Positions 36,001 to 54,000 of a DNA stretch of 64,000 bases are shown piece after piece. The DNA comes from Haliotis rubra. Lineage: Eukaryota. The position numbers were made by a program. The DNA lies in assembly GCF_003918875.1 (NCBI RefSeq), contig NW_025765669.1, positions 3,410,001 to 3,474,000 on the forward strand, in the 5' to 3' direction. Positions within the stretch are counted from its first letter, which is position 1, and each line of letters begins with the position of its first letter.

Positions 36001-39000
36001 CGTATGACCTGACTTATCCTGTAATTTTTGACAGGGCACGTCAACAGCCGTTTTGAAAGGCAGTCGTTTAATCGTATGCTATTTATTTTGTTATGTACCT
36101 AGGACCCTACCAAGAAGAAGGGTCCCTTGTTAAGAATGTAAATATGTAGTCATATTACAGCTTACTGTATAAAACACCGACATTGTAAAGTGTTTACTTC
36201 GTTGAATTCCGGAATTGTTACGAGTATATCTGCTTGAACTTCATATTTTCAGTTGTCAAGCTCTCAAGCTTCATTTTGCTCGTTCCATTGCTAAAAGGGC
36301 AACGAAAATATGCCGCATGTCACAAGGAACGTTTGCAATGTATACCAATACATTTGGTTTTTATTTTGTATGTGTAAGATTTTGCTTATTTCAAGGGGAT
36401 ATCAGGCACAGTGACTGATTGGGTATGATCTCAAACGGCACAGGGCGTTATCAATCACAGGGCTGCGTGGTACAGATTCGAATTTTGACACGCTACCGTG
36501 ATTATTTGCTTCCAAAAACCACAAGATTGGGTTAGGACTGGCTAATAAAAGAGTGGAAAGGAAAGGACAGGACGCCGTGATCTAAACCAAGTAATTATTT
36601 GCGTATCTGCTTCCAAAAAGCACAGTACTAGGTCACTGTGTACACAGCTGGCTGATAAGAGTGAACAGGAGTCGTGTTGCACTATTGCGCTGAATGACGT
36701 GTCACTGATTTGGTCTCGTCTATATATTTTTGTATATGTCACTGATTAAATAAACATACTGCAACGTTATCTTTGTTTTTGTTTGTTTGGGGCTTTTTTG
36801 TATAATTCTATTTATATTGTTGATTCATATGTAAGATGTGACTTCATATTATGGTTGCGTTGATGGAACTATAAACGTAAAAGGCAATGTGCACACTTTG
36901 GATACGAGGGTTCATGCTGTGTATACTTTGGGTCTTTTACGTTTATAGTGAGTGAGTATGGTTTTACGCCACTTTTAGCAATATTCAAGCAATATCCGTG
37001 AGGGGAACACCAGAAATGAGCTTTACACATGTACCCATGTGGGAAATCGGACTCGGATCCTCTGTGTGAGGATTGAACGCTTTAACCGCTGGAGCTACCT
37101 CCATAGTATAACAAATCAGAAACGTGTATGATAATCAAGGTGAGATGAGGGATAGTGTAAGACGACAATACACCATTTTTTTATGTAAAATTGAGGAATT
37201 TAAAATAGGATTTGTAATTTCAAATTGATATTTAAGCAGTGTTTGTTTTGAAGATGTTAGAGATTTTTTTAATAGAAACACATGCAGAACATATCAGTGA
37301 TTCGGTGAGCATCGTTTTACGCTGCGTTTTGCAACATTCCAGCAACATGACGGCGGGGGCACTAGAACTGGACTTAACACAATGTAGCCATGTAGGGAAT
37401 CGATGAGCGAACGCTTTAACTACTAGGCTACCCCCACCGTCTTAAAGTTCTTAGTTCCTAAGAAAGGTGAGGTGAGGTGAAATTGGGTTTAACGTCATGC
37501 TTGAGAATATTTCGCTCATATGACGACGTGCATGCGTGTGCATGTGCGGCTGCTTGTACTAGCCCAGACTTAAGCTGGTTTTATGGTGCTAGCCCACTGA
37601 GATACCATGCCGCAGTGAAGCATGAATACCCCTCTCAGACACATTGTACTGACTCCGAGCCGACCAGTCCTTGTTGTACCCATTAATGCCGAGCGCCAGG
37701 CAGGGACCAACAAGTACCATATTTTAACGTCTTTTTGGTGTGACGCGGGCGTTGATCGAACCAGCGACCTTCCGCTCTCCGGGCGGACGCTCTAACCACT
37801 ACACCATGGAGGCTGTCCTCCTAAGAAAGACACAATTGGCGCCATGAATTTGTACAACACTTACACATAAGGCTGGGTGGTCGCCGTCGAGGATGAAATC
37901 ATTGTATCGCCAAATGGTGACCATTCCACAAGCCATTGCATTCTACTGTAACAGTTCACTGCATCAATAGCATTCAGTCGGTGTTCGCCTAATATTTTAT
38001 TAAATGAAAACGCCTATTATGCTCCGATACGTTTCATATTGGGGATTGCAATATCCTGAAAGTTAATTGGTAAACATTTATTTTGAACAATGACAGTGGT
38101 AGCACCTGTTTGGGACGTTAATGTGTCCCGTTCTCAAGCCGCCAACTGGGCCATCAACACAATCCAGCAGATACCGCGGTTCCCCGGAATATTATTCCAT
38201 CTTTGGCATGGTATGTTTTTCTGGCAAAATAATACGATCTTGGAATTACCTTCAACCTATATATTCAACCCTTTGATTGGTACGGTAAGGACAGTTGGTT
38301 GACAATGCCTTGGCGGTCCCAACGGAAACCTTCTAGTTGTAGTTTAACAATGGGGTAAGTAGGCTCCACGGTGTGATGTCCGTTTTCACTTTAGATGGTG
38401 TAGCTGATGAAACTAAGACATTGTTACCATGTATTGTGTAATTGTTTAATGTCACACTGATTACCTTCACAATAACAGAGTTGTCATCAATGGTTTTTGG
38501 GGGAGTTGTATCAAAAAGGACTTGCAAAGCCCCCATTTAAACATTGGTCGTTATCGGTGTGAAGTACATGTGACGAAGTGATCAGTTGACGACCGGCATG
38601 GAAGAAGGAAACAGCGCGGAAGAAAGGAATAATGCGGAAGCCAGGTAAAAGCAAAAAGGGCTCTCGGACAATTGTCTGTTTACTTTGGGAGAGTTTATAG
38701 AGTGATGTCAGGCAGTGTTCGAAATATATCTTACTCTACAGTAACAAATTATTAGCATTGTTAATCTATAGGATGTTTGGCACTTACCTCACCTCATCTA
38801 CACACACGATTTTCATCACATTCCACGCACAACACTGTAAAGGATATTTTAGGTGTCAGAGGCCCAGATAAGCCGCGTATCCGGGTAAAATACGCATGGA
38901 AAATTTCCAATTACGCATTGAAAAATAATTGTTGCGTACCAATTACGCATTTAAAATGTTACATACGCAAAAAGTTTAAAACAAATGCGTACGGAATATA

Positions 39001-51000: not shown

Positions 51001-54000
51001 ATTGTTGTCTCGACCGGCATGGAAGAAGGAAACAGCGTAGAAGAAAGGAACTATGTGGATGCCAGGTAAAAGCAAAAATGGCTCTCGGAGAACTGTCTGT
51101 TTACTTTGGGAGAGTTTATAGAGTGATGGCAGGTAGTGTTCGAAACATAACTTACTCTACAGTAACAAATTATTAATATTATTAATCAATAGGATGTTTA
51201 GCACATGTAAATTATTTAATTATGTATTGATGTTTGCTAAAGTTATAGTGTATCGCTGCAAAGTCACTGGAAGTGATTGTAATTTTGACACTTTCATAAA
51301 AGATCTAAAATTACATTAAAATATGGAAACATATCGGAAAAAATATATGTGAAAAAGTAAAATCTGTATGTGCATAGTCTTTAACACTTATGACAACTGT
51401 ATTACTAATTATGACCTATCATATTTAACCCCAACACCCTGGTATGTCCATCCACGTGACACTGTACAGGGGATTAAAATCGTGGAATTTTATTTGCTAA
51501 TAAATGATGCTGAAAAAAGAAGAAAAGGATATTTGGCACTCACCTCACCTCACTCACCTGACTTAGACACACGATTTTCATCACATTCCACGCACAACAC
51601 TGTAAAGGTTATTTTAGGTGTTTTAGAAGCAAGCACATGTACTCGATGTTTGTGACTTGTAAGTCACAATCGAAACATTTTTCAAAATATTCACTTGGAA
51701 TTTCTGGGGATGGGGCTTGTTTTACATTTGTAACTTTCAATGTCCCCTGATTTCAAGCAAAAGGATACGAAAACGGAAGCCTATTGTTGTCTCGACCGAC
51801 ATGGAAGAAGGGAAAAGCGTGGAAGAAAGGAACAATGTTGCATGCCAGGTAAAAGCAAAAATGGCGCTCGGAGAATTGTCTGTTTACTTTGGGAGAGTTT
51901 ATAGAGTGATGGCAGGCAGTGTTTCGAAACATAACTTATTATACAGTAATAGTAGTGGCCTCAAATGTATTGTCATTATTCCAAATTTCTTGCTTGAAAT
52001 TTCGAGTTTTGAAAGACATGAATTATCGTATTTCAAGGAAGTAGTCGAAACCATGACAAAATCATCGAAATTTTAAGTTTTTAAAACATCCTCGAAATTT
52101 CGAAGCAACGAAACTTTCGATTAAAAGCGTCATTTATGCTTCAAACGTAGAAGAAACATGGGCTTCCGTGAGAGGATGTTGGTCATCATAGTGCACGTGA
52201 TGTAATATTTCTCCACTCTTTTCAGATGCAGGCTCTTTGCTCCATTCCGTCACCTTGAGAAAATGGGATACAGGTTAAGACTCTTGGAGAACGAGTCACT
52301 TGCTGTTGTACACGTCCCCGGTCTTTCTGACGACGCCTTTGATGTCGACGGTAATACATAAATTGTATGGTGGTGCGATTTATCACCACCACCATCATCA
52401 ACATCATCATCATCATATGTGAATGTTTCTGATTGCGCCAAATCCACACCCTAATTGATGTTGAAAGTTTCCCCAGTGAATGAATGGATCGATATTGTCA
52501 GTTTTCTATTTTCTTCACCTTGGGGAGTATACGACTAATATCGTTGTTATTGGTCCATATATACTCAATAATTTCATTGACATACCATCTATGCGGATAT
52601 TTGAAAGGAAAATGTGTGGGTAATAGGCAGGGAGAGTTGTATGACGACATGATTCTTTCCACTTCAGGGAACTGCCACGTGTGGAGTATAGCGAAGATAA
52701 TAAGTGCAGCTGTTCATTTTGCACACAATTATCCCTTGGACAGTTCGGAACGCTTCTTCCTGGACTTTGGTATACTTAGCGATGGATTGCTCACCTTCAT
52801 GGCTTCTTCGTCCTTCGAATTTGACAAGTCTTTGTATGACCCTCTTGTGTCAAAATGGCCGCTCAAGATCAATGTACAGCTCGGATACATCGGGAAGTCT
52901 TCGACCAATTTTGTCAGTAATATTGTTGAACCATCATCTGGGAAAATACTGGTGAGAAATACCATCCAACTGGTTGCCATTGACAAAGAAACGCGGAAAC
53001 CGACGCCATTCCCACCATGGTGGAAGGAGAAACACGGCGAGAAGGCTGTCAGGAAGGAACCACTGATTGTCCAGAAGCTCTCCAAACCTGACAACGCCCA
53101 CACGTACACCTTGCGTGTGTCGTGGAGCGAAACAGACATGTACAAGCATGTCAACTGGGCGTCGTATGTGGTGTACTCCATCAATGCTCTCCACCACGGG
53201 ATCAAGGAGGGAGTGTTGAGAGGCGTGAGCAAGGAGGTGGTCAGGAATGGAGTGCAAAAGATGCAGATGGCTTACTTTGGTGAATGCGTGGAAGGGGACC
53301 AGCTGACTGTTTACTTCTGGGAGGTGGAGGACCAGCCTAGGACTGTGTATTTTGACATAGAAAAGGATGGAACGTCTGTCTTTCAAAACACATTAACATA
53401 TCATCAGTAGGAATGATTGCTGAATTATACAGACACATTATTCAACTGGTATTCATTATGTCAGTGCAAGAACATGGCGGAACAAAATGGCCGACAGCAC
53501 ATGGCCACCTTGCTGGAAAAAGGACAAGGGTTAATATATAACATGAAAACAAAGCAATCATGTGTCGATGTGTATGTGTGTTATGTATTGTAAATTAGAA
53601 TAACTAGAAAGAGATAACTCTGCGCAACTTCCGCCGTCAACCTCTAGGGGAGATCACTCTCCTGAGGGAGGTAACACTGCTCACGGTGGTTGCATACTTC
53701 AACTTACAAAAGTAACGGAGTCAAACCTCAGGGTTCAGAGTCACCTGCTGAGCGAGTACCGTATGTAAACATCTGAAGAGATAGAGACATGTGACAGCTG
53801 TGATTGGATGAAAATAGTGTAACATTTTTATGTTTTTTAAATGCACATCCATCCAGTAATTAAAACTGATCACAATTTTAAGTATTTAGTGCTGTCATTT
53901 TTATCACCATGACGTATGTTTACTGTGTATACAGATATTTTCCAGTAGGTAACATTTGGTGGGGAACTGGGGCTGATGGGTTCAGCTTCCTGTGCTCTGG

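What the first reader, a model, noticed from the sequence alone, without database searches (positions are those of the whole stretch)
37850..53420. TE-2 is an unequal-crossover hybrid: 5' half from TE-3, 3' half and 3' UTR from TE-1
Seen: TE-2's upstream region, exon 1, cassettes, middle exon and the first part of the last exon (PLDSSERFFLD..) match TE-3. Its C-terminal half (FPSWW, RGMNKEVVKNGIQR, IERDG) and >1 kb of 3' flank (45500-46520 vs 35590-36780) match TE-1. TE-3 has FPPWW, RGVSKEVVRNGVQK and an unrelated 3' UTR. The TE-1-to-TE-3 spacer is duplicated. This is the 1-(3/1)-3 product expected from misalignment of a 1-3 tandem, with the switch near VAIDKETRK (~45060-45110), close to the boundary between the two hotdog domains. 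A few residues (VYSI, YFDIE) still follow TE-3, so later conversion or mutation is possible.
Basis: partly seen in the sequence, partly recalled or inferred. Interest (0 to 1): 0.65.

Follow-up and report, generated by a model that had tools for sequence, protein, structure and literature searches.

The report
Unequal-crossover hybrid thioesterase gene in abalone
In a blacklip abalone gene cluster, the middle of three thioesterase-like genes has the front of its right-hand neighbour and the tail flank of its left-hand neighbour, the ordinary footprint of an old unequal crossover blurred by gene conversion.

Summary
The window is Haliotis rubra, not human. TE-1, TE-2 and TE-3 are the annotated genes LOC124272481, LOC124272484 and LOC124272485. 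They encode mollusc double-hotdog thioesterase-like proteins.

- TE-2 shares its upstream region, exon 1, cassette exons, middle exon, introns and the first 305 nt of its last exon with TE-3.
- TE-2 shares about 1 kb of 3' flank with TE-1.
- TE-3's similarity to both stops about 3 nt after the stop codon.
- The two inter-gene spacers are collinear along their whole length.
- The informative-site switch lies at 45051/45052 (0 of 10000 permutations reach it).

TE-1 and TE-3 themselves jump from dS 1.16 to 0.21 at the same point (45063), while TE-2 versus TE-3 silent divergence does not change across it. So the last 438 coding nt are a tract shared by all three genes. The crossover lies somewhere inside it and cannot be placed at VAIDKETRK. 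Seven of nine "TE-1-like" residues are ancestral states that TE-3 lost.

A later TE-1/TE-2 conversion of about 1.1 kb is also likely.

Verdict: an anti-Lepore-type duplication plus partial concerted evolution. It is a known kind, of modest interest.

The parts
30924..35428 (+). TE-1 = LOC124272481 (protein P0005). Coding exons about 30924-30982, 32583-32704 and 34686-35428, the last including the stop.
   Evidence: P0005 named H. rubra LOC124272481 isoform X2. tblastn map. GT-AG borders.
34991..35428 (+). Copy 1 of the shared 438-nt tract 'p': linker plus second hotdog domain, up to the stop codon.
   Evidence: 14/438 differences to TE-2 and 28/438 to TE-3, against 95/305 just upstream (v TE-2).
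35429..36780 (+). 3' flank block D, copy 1. Includes a TE-1-private 160-bp x2 tandem repeat at 35367-35688.
36841..37236 (+). Mid-spacer, copy 1. A SINE-like insertion starts at 36947 and is shared with copy 2.
   Evidence: 36841-37005 v 47199-47381; 37177-37236 v 47396-47458. Alignment A2.
37465..37805 (.). Interspersed repeat present only in spacer 1->2. Other copies lie at 14634-14985 and 21144-21487.
37844..38597 (+). Upstream block U, copy 1 (TE-2 promoter side).
   Evidence: 112/748 differences to 49010-49777.
38598..45500 (+). TE-2 = LOC124272484 (protein P0002). Exon 1 at 38598-38644. 90-nt cassette exons at 39482-39571 (not in the model), 40434-40523 and 41377-41466. Middle exon at 41877-41995. 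Last exon at 44758-45500.
39348..41581 (+). Tandem 944-bp units carrying the cassette exons (96.7% between neighbouring units).
43012..44794 (+). 78-bp x 22.8 minisatellite made of the splice acceptor plus the first 49 nt of TE-2's last exon.
45063..45500 (+). Copy 2 of tract p. The exchange that made TE-2 must lie inside it.
45501..46526 (+). 3' flank block D, copy 2. It has a younger layer up to about 46169 and an older layer beyond.
47199..47458 (+). Mid-spacer, copy 2, with the truncated shared SINE start at 47323.
47488..48952 (+). Decayed Tc1/mariner-type element, present only in spacer 2->3. Terminal inverted repeats at 47488-47523 and 48915-48952.
   Evidence: inverted repeats. (HTH_38, HTH_Tnp_Tc3_2 and DDE_3 in different frames).
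49010..49777 (+). Upstream block U, copy 2 (TE-3 promoter side).
49778..53410 (+). TE-3 = LOC124272485 (protein P0001). Exon 1 at 49778-49806. Cassette at 50976-51065. A second cassette near 51758 has one extra base and is skipped in the model. Middle exon at 52226-52350. Last exon at 52668-53410.
52973..53410 (+). Copy 3 of tract p.
53411..55779 (.). TE-3's 3' flank 'X', unrelated to block D. It is shared with the convergent gene TE-4.
55780..57047 (-). TE-4, an older paralog in convergent orientation. Last exon at 55780-56583, middle exon at 56934-57047.
   Evidence: 40-48% amino-acid identity to TE-1, TE-2 and TE-3.

Best explanation
TE-2 is the extra gene left by a non-allelic homologous (unequal) crossover between the last exons of two older tandem paralogs, TE-1 and TE-3. 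This is the duplication, or 'anti-Lepore', product 1-(3/1)-3.

Inferred sequence of events:
- E1. A gene conversion made the last 438 coding nt (linker plus second, catalytic-type hotdog domain) nearly identical in TE-1 and TE-3. These two genes are otherwise at dS>1. This tract, called 'p', ran from the VAIDKETRK codons to the stop codon, where paralog homology ends.
- E2. Misaligned chromatids crossed over somewhere inside p. That duplicated the whole unit [3' flank D - mid-spacer - upstream U - TE-3 5' exons]. The new gene has a TE-3-type promoter, N-terminal exons and first hotdog domain, the common catalytic half, and a TE-1-type 3' flank.
- E3. Later, TE-1 and TE-2 were homogenised again over about 1.1 kb (45063-46169).

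All three genes stayed open and under purifying selection.

Shown: the block structure, its collinearity and the steps in divergence. Inferred: the order E1 then E2 then E3, the direction of E1, and any effect on expression.
For: Block structure.
- There are three copies of p but only two of everything between them, in the order 5'(TE-1) - p - D - mid - U - 5'(TE-2) - p - D - mid - U - 5'(TE-3) - p - X.
- The two spacers align in five collinear pieces. They include a SINE-like insertion at the same site in both (36947/47323).
- The unaligned remainder includes the insertions private to one spacer: the repeat at 37465-37805, the Tc1 remnant at 47488-48952, and a local tandem at 46591-46887.
- TE-3's similarity to TE-1 and TE-2 ends about 3 nt after the stop: 21/70 identical v 69/70 for TE-1 v TE-2. 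This is natural if X is the native flank of an old paralog.
- TE-1 shares no intron or upstream sequence with TE-2 or TE-3.

Statistics.
- Informative-site break at 45051/45052, 11:69 v 27:5, reached by 0 of 10000 permutations.
- dS in the 5' part: 1v2 1.13, 1v3 1.16, 2v3 0.305. dS in p: 0.082, 0.212, 0.255.
- Within p, third positions differ at 7/145 (1v2) against 20/145 (2v3), p=0.014.

Ages are compatible with one event. Non-coding TE-2 v TE-3 blocks differ by 11.6-30.1% (upstream 112/748). Distal D and mid-spacer TE-1 v TE-2 differ by 20.6-24.2%.

Protein trees.
- In the N part (TE-1,TE-2) is rejected (p-AU 7e-6), and TE-2 groups with H. asinina P0004 (97/93).
- The best C-part tree is (P0003,(TE-3,(TE-1,(TE-2,P0004)))), which is the topology this model predicts.

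dN/dS is 0.17-0.34 in the TE-2/TE-3 and TE-1/TE-2 comparisons examined.
Against: - The simple model predicts that TE-1 v TE-3 is equally old on both sides of the crossover. It is not (dS 1.16 v 0.21), so an extra event E1 has to be assumed close in time to E2.
- TE-2 v TE-3 silent divergence is flat along the exon (p=0.38). Taken alone, that is what plain whole-gene sisters would show.
- The C-part tree has weak support (49-72% bootstrap). No alternative is rejected there: (TE-2,TE-3) p-AU 0.083 and (TE-1,P0006) 0.089.
- Only 1 of 9 '1=2' residues is a shared derived state.
- Block ages are heterogeneous. Proximal D is 8.1% and distal D 20.6%, against U upstream at 15.0%, so E3 is needed as well.
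- TE-2 shares two derived residues with P0004 inside the supposedly re-converted tract. This fits E3 awkwardly.
- A weak lead: P0004 ends two residues after the usual stop position. That fits a TE-3-type flank with one change fewer than a D-type flank. I did not test it.
Confidence: 0.6

Rival explanations
1. TE-1, not TE-2, is the mosaic. TE-2 and TE-3 are plain whole-gene tandem duplicates of a TE-3-type unit whose native 3' flank is D. TE-1 obtained its last 438 coding nt and its flank from the TE-2 lineage, either by long conversion or by a deletion-type crossover with a lost first unit. TE-3 later lost flank D.
For: - TE-2 v TE-3 silent divergence is uniform along the last exon (18/100 v 20/145 third positions, p=0.38; dS 0.305 v 0.255).
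- In p the distances fit a clean clock tree ((1,2),3), with 1v3 close to 2v3.
- In the C-part tree TE-1 sits inside the shallow clade of TE-3-type proteins.
- The unnamed protein P0006, which is TE-1's nearest relative in the N part (76%), is only 69% identical to TE-1 in the C part.
Against: - TE-3's homology would have to end within about 3 nt of its stop codon by coincidence.
- It needs more events: two duplications, one hybridisation and one flank loss.
- The collinear mid-spacer joining D to U in both spacers means TE-1 would have had to acquire far more than a conversion tract.
- Distal D and mid-spacer (20.6-24.2%) are much older than p (3.2%), so a single recent transfer does not fit.
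Confidence: 0.2
2. There was no crossover. TE-2 began as a complete copy of TE-3, and its 3' half plus more than 1 kb of flank were later overwritten by TE-1 through gene conversion alone.
For: - The TE-1/TE-2 tract 45063-46169 is young: 63/1080 differences against 274/1987 in the TE-2/TE-3 non-coding blocks (p=3e-12). Conversion between these two genes has therefore very probably happened.
Against: - A tract needs homology at both ends. A TE-3-type copy would have flank X, which has no similarity to D.
- TE-1/TE-2 similarity continues beyond the young tract, through distal D and the mid-spacer, up to block U.
Confidence: 0.1
3. Assembly artefact: two haplotypes, or mis-joined copies of the conserved tract, were merged into a false extra gene.
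For: - Passages I read in the H. rubra assembly paper (PMC6774278) describe a merged Nanopore/Illumina meta-assembly of a highly heterozygous genome, with haplotigs purged afterwards.
- Three 92-97% identical copies of p are possible mis-join points.
Against: - The two units differ by 8-30% in non-coding sequence and carry different transposon insertions, cassette numbers and a minisatellite.
- The H. asinina protein P0004 groups with TE-2 rather than TE-3 (97/93). The TE-2/TE-3 split is therefore seen in a second, independently assembled genome.
- Swapping the segments at p gives the same two-unit structure.
Confidence: 0.03

Closest known systems
Haemoglobin anti-Lepore-type fusion genes: the duplication product of unequal crossing-over between tandem delta- and beta-globin genes. 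Recalled from textbooks; no call.
   Same: An extra hybrid gene lies between both intact parents in the same orientation. It has the 5' side of the distal gene and the 3' side and flank of the proximal gene, the inter-gene spacer is duplicated, and the reading frame is kept.
   Different: The event here is old and apparently fixed. It is probably older than the H. rubra / H. asinina split, and non-coding divergence is 12-30%. The parents differ at dS>1 outside a 438-nt tract, so the exchange was confined to that tract and cannot be located within it.
Partial-gene concerted evolution with a sharp edge, as in the human fetal globin pair HBG1/HBG2. Recalled; no call.
   Same: One part of tandem paralogs is kept nearly identical while the rest diverges, with an abrupt boundary. 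Here the boundary is at 45063, where difference density drops from 31.7% to 6.4%.
   Different: Three genes share the tract. The boundary falls at the end of the first hotdog domain. I saw no simple-sequence repeat at the edge in the 240 nt displayed.
Acyl-ACP thioesterases with two hotdog domains, such as plant FatB (PDB 5x04), FatA and bacterial relatives.
   Same: A profile of the family matches 5x04 at E 1.6e-9 across the junction of the two domains. It also matches 9mqf, 2ess, 7hqq and YbgC-type single-hotdog thioesterases. Pfam 4HBT_2 is above its cut-off. An Asp...His motif and a Glu, nearly invariant across 66 aligned relatives, lie in the second domain.
   Different: Pfam Acyl-ACP_TE_C scores below its cut-off (17.6-19.1 v 21 bits). 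No enzyme activity or substrate is known. The nearest clusters are mostly molluscan. N-terminal exons and basic 30-residue cassettes are added.

Membership tests
Unequal-crossover (NAHR) duplication product, anti-Lepore type | The hybrid gene lies between both parental genes, in the same orientation, with its frame intact. | tested here: met
   Gene order TE-1, TE-2, TE-3, all on the + strand. Database models are open, with GT-AG borders.
Unequal-crossover (NAHR) duplication product, anti-Lepore type | The hybrid's 5' side matches the distal parent and its 3' flank matches the proximal parent. The reciprocal flanks are unrelated. | tested here: met
   After the stop codon: 69/70 v 21/70 identical.
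Unequal-crossover (NAHR) duplication product, anti-Lepore type | The whole inter-gene spacer is duplicated and collinear. | tested here: met
   Five collinear blocks and a shared SINE site. The unaligned remainder includes the insertions private to one spacer.
Unequal-crossover (NAHR) duplication product, anti-Lepore type | Both duplicated sides date from one event (equal neutral divergence). | tested here: inconclusive
   U blocks 11.6-30.1%. Distal D and mid-spacer 20.6-24.2%. Proximal D 8.1% and p 3.2%. Compatible only if a later conversion is added.
Unequal-crossover (NAHR) duplication product, anti-Lepore type | The parents differ on both sides of the exchange point, so the switch is specific to the hybrid and can be located. 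| tested here: not met
   TE-1 v TE-3 drops from 95/300 to 28/438 at the same place. TE-2 v TE-3 third positions are flat. This lowers the claim about where the crossover lies, not the claim about the mechanism.
Acyl-ACP thioesterase-like double-hotdog proteins (Pfam 4HBT_2 / Acyl-ACP_TE_C) | Pfam domain scores above the curated cut-off. | tested here: inconclusive
   4HBT_2 scores 28.5-36.8 bits against a cut-off of 25.5, so it is met. Acyl-ACP_TE_C scores 17.6-19.1 bits against 21, so it is not met.
Acyl-ACP thioesterase-like double-hotdog proteins (Pfam 4HBT_2 / Acyl-ACP_TE_C) | Two hotdog folds in one chain. | tested here: inconclusive
   Supported by sequence only: the profile aligns to 5x04 across both domains.
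Acyl-ACP thioesterase-like double-hotdog proteins (Pfam 4HBT_2 / Acyl-ACP_TE_C) | Thioesterase activity on acyl-ACP or acyl-CoA. | not testable with these tools
Conserved Asp272, His276 and Glu321 (P0002 numbering) are present in TE-1, TE-2 and TE-3. Their catalytic role is recalled from plant FatB work, not tested.

The most novel reading that the evidence does not exclude
The cluster evolves by modules. The catalytic second hotdog domain plus linker is held in common among three tandem paralogs by repeated gene conversion, with one fixed 5' edge at the domain boundary. The first hotdog domain is the specificity-determining one in plant relatives (recalled), and it and the N-terminal exons diverge freely (dS>1). 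The homogenised tract then serves as the substrate for crossovers that create new genes pairing a given front half with a different 3' UTR. Exon-level tandem expansions (90-nt basic cassettes, and a 78-bp acceptor minisatellite) add further variation.
Probability: 0.3. Interest if true: 0.45.

Novelty: new member of a known kind. Interest (0 to 1): 0.3.

Why it matters
This is a clean, datable example of how unequal crossing-over and domain-limited gene conversion together build a small enzyme family in a mollusc. It also shows that three-sequence comparisons can mistake retained ancestral states for recombination.

It has practical value for abalone genomics. The three 92-97% identical tracts and the minisatellite are places where assemblies, read mapping and orthology calls will go wrong.

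It does not reveal a new mechanism. The proteins' function is still unknown.

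Tried and rejected
Species and searches
- Human origin is rejected. Three H. rubra RefSeq-named proteins match, one at 100%.
- Haplotype merge is rejected; see rival 4.
- The listing of cluster members was meant to find more abalone species inside the 90% clusters.
- A search for longer, fused gene models with TE-1 found none among 1369 candidates. The tool itself calls this weak evidence.
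- A second search with TE-1 returned only the same six proteins. No TE-1-type ortholog from a named abalone species was available.

Structure
- So there is no model, no fold search, and no structural check of the domain boundary.

Negative results
- ARAGORN found no tRNA genes.
- NCBIfam gave only sub-threshold YbgC/FadM hits.

Literature
- Six searches were run: plus for the assembly papers.
- None returned a paper on this gene family in abalone or gastropods, or on this locus.
- These searches cover only the held open-access library.

Limits of the tests
- Rooting the p tract with DNA was not possible. Only proteins of other species were available.
- The single best step in TE-1 v TE-2 difference density is at 44923 (67/160 v 42/578), not 45063. 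The reason is that the first 160 nt are extremely diverged. The stretch 44923-45062 is still about 20% different, against 3.2% after 45063.

Full report
WHAT THE WINDOW IS. The window is not human. A single-exon query (TE-3's last exon, window 52658-53407) returned 9 proteins at E<=0.001 among 103 candidates.
- The best hit was 100% identical: 'LOC124272485 isoform X1 [Haliotis rubra]' (P0001, TE-3).
- Then came LOC124272484 (P0002, TE-2, 87%), an H. cracherodii protein (P0003, 84%), an H. asinina protein (P0004, 81%) and LOC124272481 X2 (P0005, TE-1, 78%).
- The rest were an unnamed record (P0006, 64%) and three distant ones.

I searched the window exon by exon only. I built and searched no joined exon model. 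The full-length proteins used later are those database records. The N run at 21496-21688 was left alone.

GENE STRUCTURE. Mapping the three H. rubra proteins back on the window, with canonical GT-AG borders, gives the same plan for each gene: a first coding exon, a middle exon and a long last exon.
- TE-2 and TE-3 also have 90-nt cassette exons.
- A fourth, older paralog (TE-4) lies convergent to TE-3 at 55780-57047.

Self-BLAST of the window gave 1122 HSPs. I kept the 79 of at least 200 bp, counting each pair once. A more sensitive run followed. Together they show the following.
- TE-2's upstream region, exon 1, cassettes, introns, middle exon and the start of its last exon align with TE-3. 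Identity is 78-91% with gaps counted, and 11.6-30.1% substitutions in non-coding blocks.
- TE-1 shares with them only interspersed repeats and its middle exon (68-69%).
- Downstream, TE-2's flank 45501-46526 aligns with TE-1's 35589-36780.
- TE-1's coordinates are shifted by a private 160-bp x2 tandem repeat over its stop codon.
- The first 70 nt after the stop are 69/70 identical between TE-1 and TE-2, and 21/70 between TE-3 and either.
- The rest of TE-3's flank has no similarity to D apart from dispersed repeats.

In the last exon, 147 of 738 aligned positions vary: 74 '2=3', 38 '1=2', 24 '1=3' and 11 all different. The best break is between 45051 and 45052, with 11:69 on the left and 27:5 on the right. 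No permutation of 10000 reached the observed chi-square of 50.9; the largest permuted value was 21.9.

With three sequences and no outgroup, '1=2' only means that TE-3 differs. Three results change the reading.

1. TE-1 versus TE-3 has the same step.
   - 95/300 differences before 45063 and 28/438 after it.
   - dS 1.16 against 0.21.
   - Third positions 46/100 against 17/145, p=2.5e-9.
   - The alignment shows all three sequences becoming nearly identical from 45063 on.

2. TE-2 versus TE-3 does not change across the 'switch'. Third positions are 18/100 against 20/145 (p=0.38), and dS is 0.305 against 0.255.

3. Polarising with the H. cracherodii protein:
   - 7 of the 9 '1=2' residues in the C-terminal part are changes derived in TE-3. 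These include the FPPWW proline and most of the RGVSKEVVRNGVQK differences.
   - 1 is unclear, and only the R of IERDG is a shared derived state of TE-1 and TE-2. H. asinina P0004 has it too.
   - The two '2=3' residues (VYSI, YFDIE) are changes private to TE-1.

So the last 438 coding nt, which I call p (TE-1 34991-35428, TE-2 45063-45500, TE-3 52973-53410), are a tract shared by all three genes.

Stronger constraint does not explain this.
- The effect is in silent sites.
- Distant relatives are no more alike in the C part than in the N part. TE-4 is 42-48% against 42-44% identical, and Owenia P0009 34-42% against 33-35%.

WHY UNEQUAL CROSSING-OVER IS STILL THE BEST MODEL. The non-coding blocks are the decisive evidence.
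- The locus reads 5'(TE-1) - p - D - mid - U - 5'(TE-2) - p - D - mid - U - 5'(TE-3) - p - X. There are three copies of p and two of everything in between.
- The spacers 35429-38597 and 45501-49777 align in five collinear pieces.
- One piece contains the start of a SINE-like element at the same site in both (36947/47323). Alignment A2 shows unique sequence aligned on its 5' side.
- The unaligned remainder includes three private insertions. One is an interspersed repeat at 37465-37805. The second is a decayed Tc1/mariner element at 47488-48952, with inverted ends and HTH/DDE_3 remnants in different frames. The third is a local tandem at 46591-46887.

Three copies of a short repeat flanking two copies of the intervening segment is what homologous exchange between two copies of that repeat produces. 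This model also explains why TE-3's homology stops at its stop codon. X is then the native flank of an old paralog, and beyond the coding sequence there was never anything to align or convert.

The price is an earlier event, E1, that made p common to TE-1 and TE-3. It cannot be much older than the duplication, because dS 1v3 in p (0.21) is not above dS 2v3 in the 5' part (0.305).
- If E1 came before the crossover, the common edge at 45063 arises once and TE-2 inherits it.
- That order also explains why exchange happened there. Elsewhere the parents were about 65-70% identical.
- It follows that the crossover point is anywhere in 45063-45500 and cannot be resolved.

A LATER LAYER. From 45063 outward, TE-1 versus TE-2 has a step at about 46169: 63/1080 differences on the left and 76/355 on the right, reached by 0 of 5000 permutations.
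- The left part is less diverged than the TE-2/TE-3 non-coding blocks (274/1987; p=3e-12).
- The right part is more diverged than those blocks (p=4e-4).
- In block terms, p is 3.2% and proximal D 8.1%. Distal D is 20.6% and the mid-spacer 22-24%. U upstream is 15.0% and the introns 11.6-30.1%.

I read this as a later TE-1/TE-2 conversion of about 1.1 kb laid over the old duplication. Constraint on a 3' UTR is an alternative for the flank, but not for the silent coding sites (7/145 against 18/100, p=0.0011).

One thing does not fit well. TE-2 shares two derived residues with H. asinina P0004 inside this tract, yet TE-1 and TE-2 differ far less than TE-2 and P0004 do there (5% against 13% amino acids). 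P0004's long branch, patchy conversion or parallel change could each account for it.

AGE. In the N-terminal part (middle exon plus the first part of the last exon; 155 columns, 9 proteins) the tree is (P0003 H. cracherodii,(TE-3,(TE-2,P0004 H. asinina))), with support 100/99, 99/98 and 97/93.
- Forcing TE-2 and TE-3 together costs 12.9 log-likelihood units (p-AU 0.0165). I named this group after seeing the tree.
- (TE-1,TE-2) is rejected at 7e-6.
- TE-2 therefore probably predates the H. rubra / H. asinina split and is not a recent copy-number variant.
- In the C-terminal part the best tree, (P0006,(P0003,(TE-3,(TE-1,(TE-2,P0004))))), is the one the model predicts. Support is only 49-72% bootstrap, and none of the alternatives tested is rejected (p-AU 0.08-0.24).
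- TE-1 lies inside the shallow TE-3-type clade. Its N-part relative P0006 lies outside (76% against 69% identity). This suggests, weakly, that E1 copied TE-3-type sequence into TE-1.

RIVALS.
- (i) TE-1 is the mosaic, and TE-2/TE-3 are plain duplicates with native flank D. This fits the flat TE-2/TE-3 divergence. It needs TE-3's homology to end about 3 nt after its stop by accident, and it needs more events.
- (ii) Conversion alone into TE-2. A tract cannot end in flank X, which is unrelated to D, and the homology runs through the whole spacer.
- (iii) Assembly or haplotype artefact. The units differ by 8-30% and in their insertions, and H. asinina has a TE-2-type protein. The assembly paper does describe a merged, haplotig-purged assembly of a heterozygous genome (PMC6774278, passages read). 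The heterozygosity figure is in a supplement I could not open.

WHAT THE GENES ENCODE.
- Pfam finds 4HBT_2 above its cut-off and Acyl-ACP_TE_C just below.
- phmmer over 1.84 billion representatives found 611 relatives at E<=0.001.
- A profile of 66 of them (A1) matches plant FatB 5x04 (E 1.6e-9) across the junction of its two hotdog domains. It also matches other acyl-ACP thioesterases and YbgC-type enzymes.
- In that alignment the VAIDKETRKPTP stretch corresponds to the end of the first domain and the linker.
- The nearly invariant Asp272, His276 and Glu321 (P0002 numbering) lie in p and are kept in all three genes.
- The nearest Atlas clusters are mostly molluscan.
- dN/dS is 0.17-0.34 in the TE-2/TE-3 and TE-1/TE-2 comparisons examined.
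- Inference only: TE-2 combines TE-3-type transcription signals and first domain with the common catalytic half and a TE-1-type 3' UTR.

NOVELTY. The mechanism is textbook: anti-Lepore-type duplication, and partial concerted evolution as in fetal globin genes (both recalled). Six literature searches found nothing on this family in abalone or on this locus within the held library. I rate it a new member of a known kind, of modest interest.

NOT CHECKED.
- Orthologous DNA from other abalone species, because no eukaryotic genome collection was available.
- Cluster members.
- Any structure.
- Transcripts.
- Population data.

Noticed in passing
window 43012-44794: A 78-bp x 22.8 minisatellite in TE-2's last intron. 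It is made of the splice acceptor plus the first 49 nt of the last exon; TE-3 has one copy at 52644-52719. Of the 23 units examined, 21 keep a CAG acceptor and 2 have CAAG. Only the three units starting at 44680, 44602 and 44524 are in frame with the exon. Using one of them would insert 26, 52 or 78 residues into the first hotdog domain.
   Followed up: partly
window 39348-41581 and 50787-51949: 90-nt phase-preserving cassette exons encoding a basic RKRK-containing 30-mer, carried on tandem units of about 940 bp. TE-2 has three; the first, at 39482-39571, is intact but absent from the database model. TE-3 has two; the second, near 51758, has one extra base and is skipped. Exon 1 is itself related to the cassette's 3' half. 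The H. cracherodii and H. asinina models have no cassette.
   Followed up: partly
window 35367-35688: A 160-bp x2 tandem duplication (97%) private to TE-1. It spans its stop codon and repeats the last 19 codons downstream of the real stop.
   Followed up: partly
window 47488-48952: A decayed Tc1/mariner-type transposon with 36-38-bp inverted ends. HTH_38, HTH_Tnp_Tc3_2 and DDE_3 remnants lie in different frames. It is present only in the TE-2-to-TE-3 spacer.
   Followed up: yes
window 41877-41995 v 52232-52350: The middle exons of TE-2 and TE-3 differ at only 3/119 positions, while the flanking introns differ by 11.6-30.1%. This is either strong constraint or another small conversion.
   Followed up: no
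P0004 (H. asinina) C-terminus v window 45498-45510 and 53408-53420: P0004 runs two residues past the usual stop position. Reading through the stop gives E-then-stop on TE-3's flank, but a longer tail on the TE-1/TE-2 flank. H. asinina's TE-2-type gene might therefore carry a TE-3-type flank. This is a weak lead that bears on the rival models.
   Followed up: no
window 21291-21872 and 27937-28239: Two ORFs ending in nearly the same Cys-rich, roughly 40-residue tail. The second (27937-28239), the only one scanned, has no Pfam match. They are probably exons of another duplicated gene upstream of the cluster. The first abuts the N run, which was left alone.
   Followed up: no
window 5567, 9434, 15731, 24983, 25548, 31096, 33601, 42317, 55119, 60784 and others: A SINE-like repeat family of about 230 bp, and a second family of about 150 bp (36947, 27388, 4558 and others), are scattered through the window. 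There is also a reverse-transcriptase fragment at 2205-2606 (RVT_1, 5e-17). ARAGORN found no tRNA gene.
   Followed up: partly
window 55780-57047 (minus strand): TE-4, a fourth family member convergent to TE-3. It has the same exon plan but only 40-48% amino-acid identity to the others. Its nearest library representative is P0011, at 70%.
   Followed up: partly
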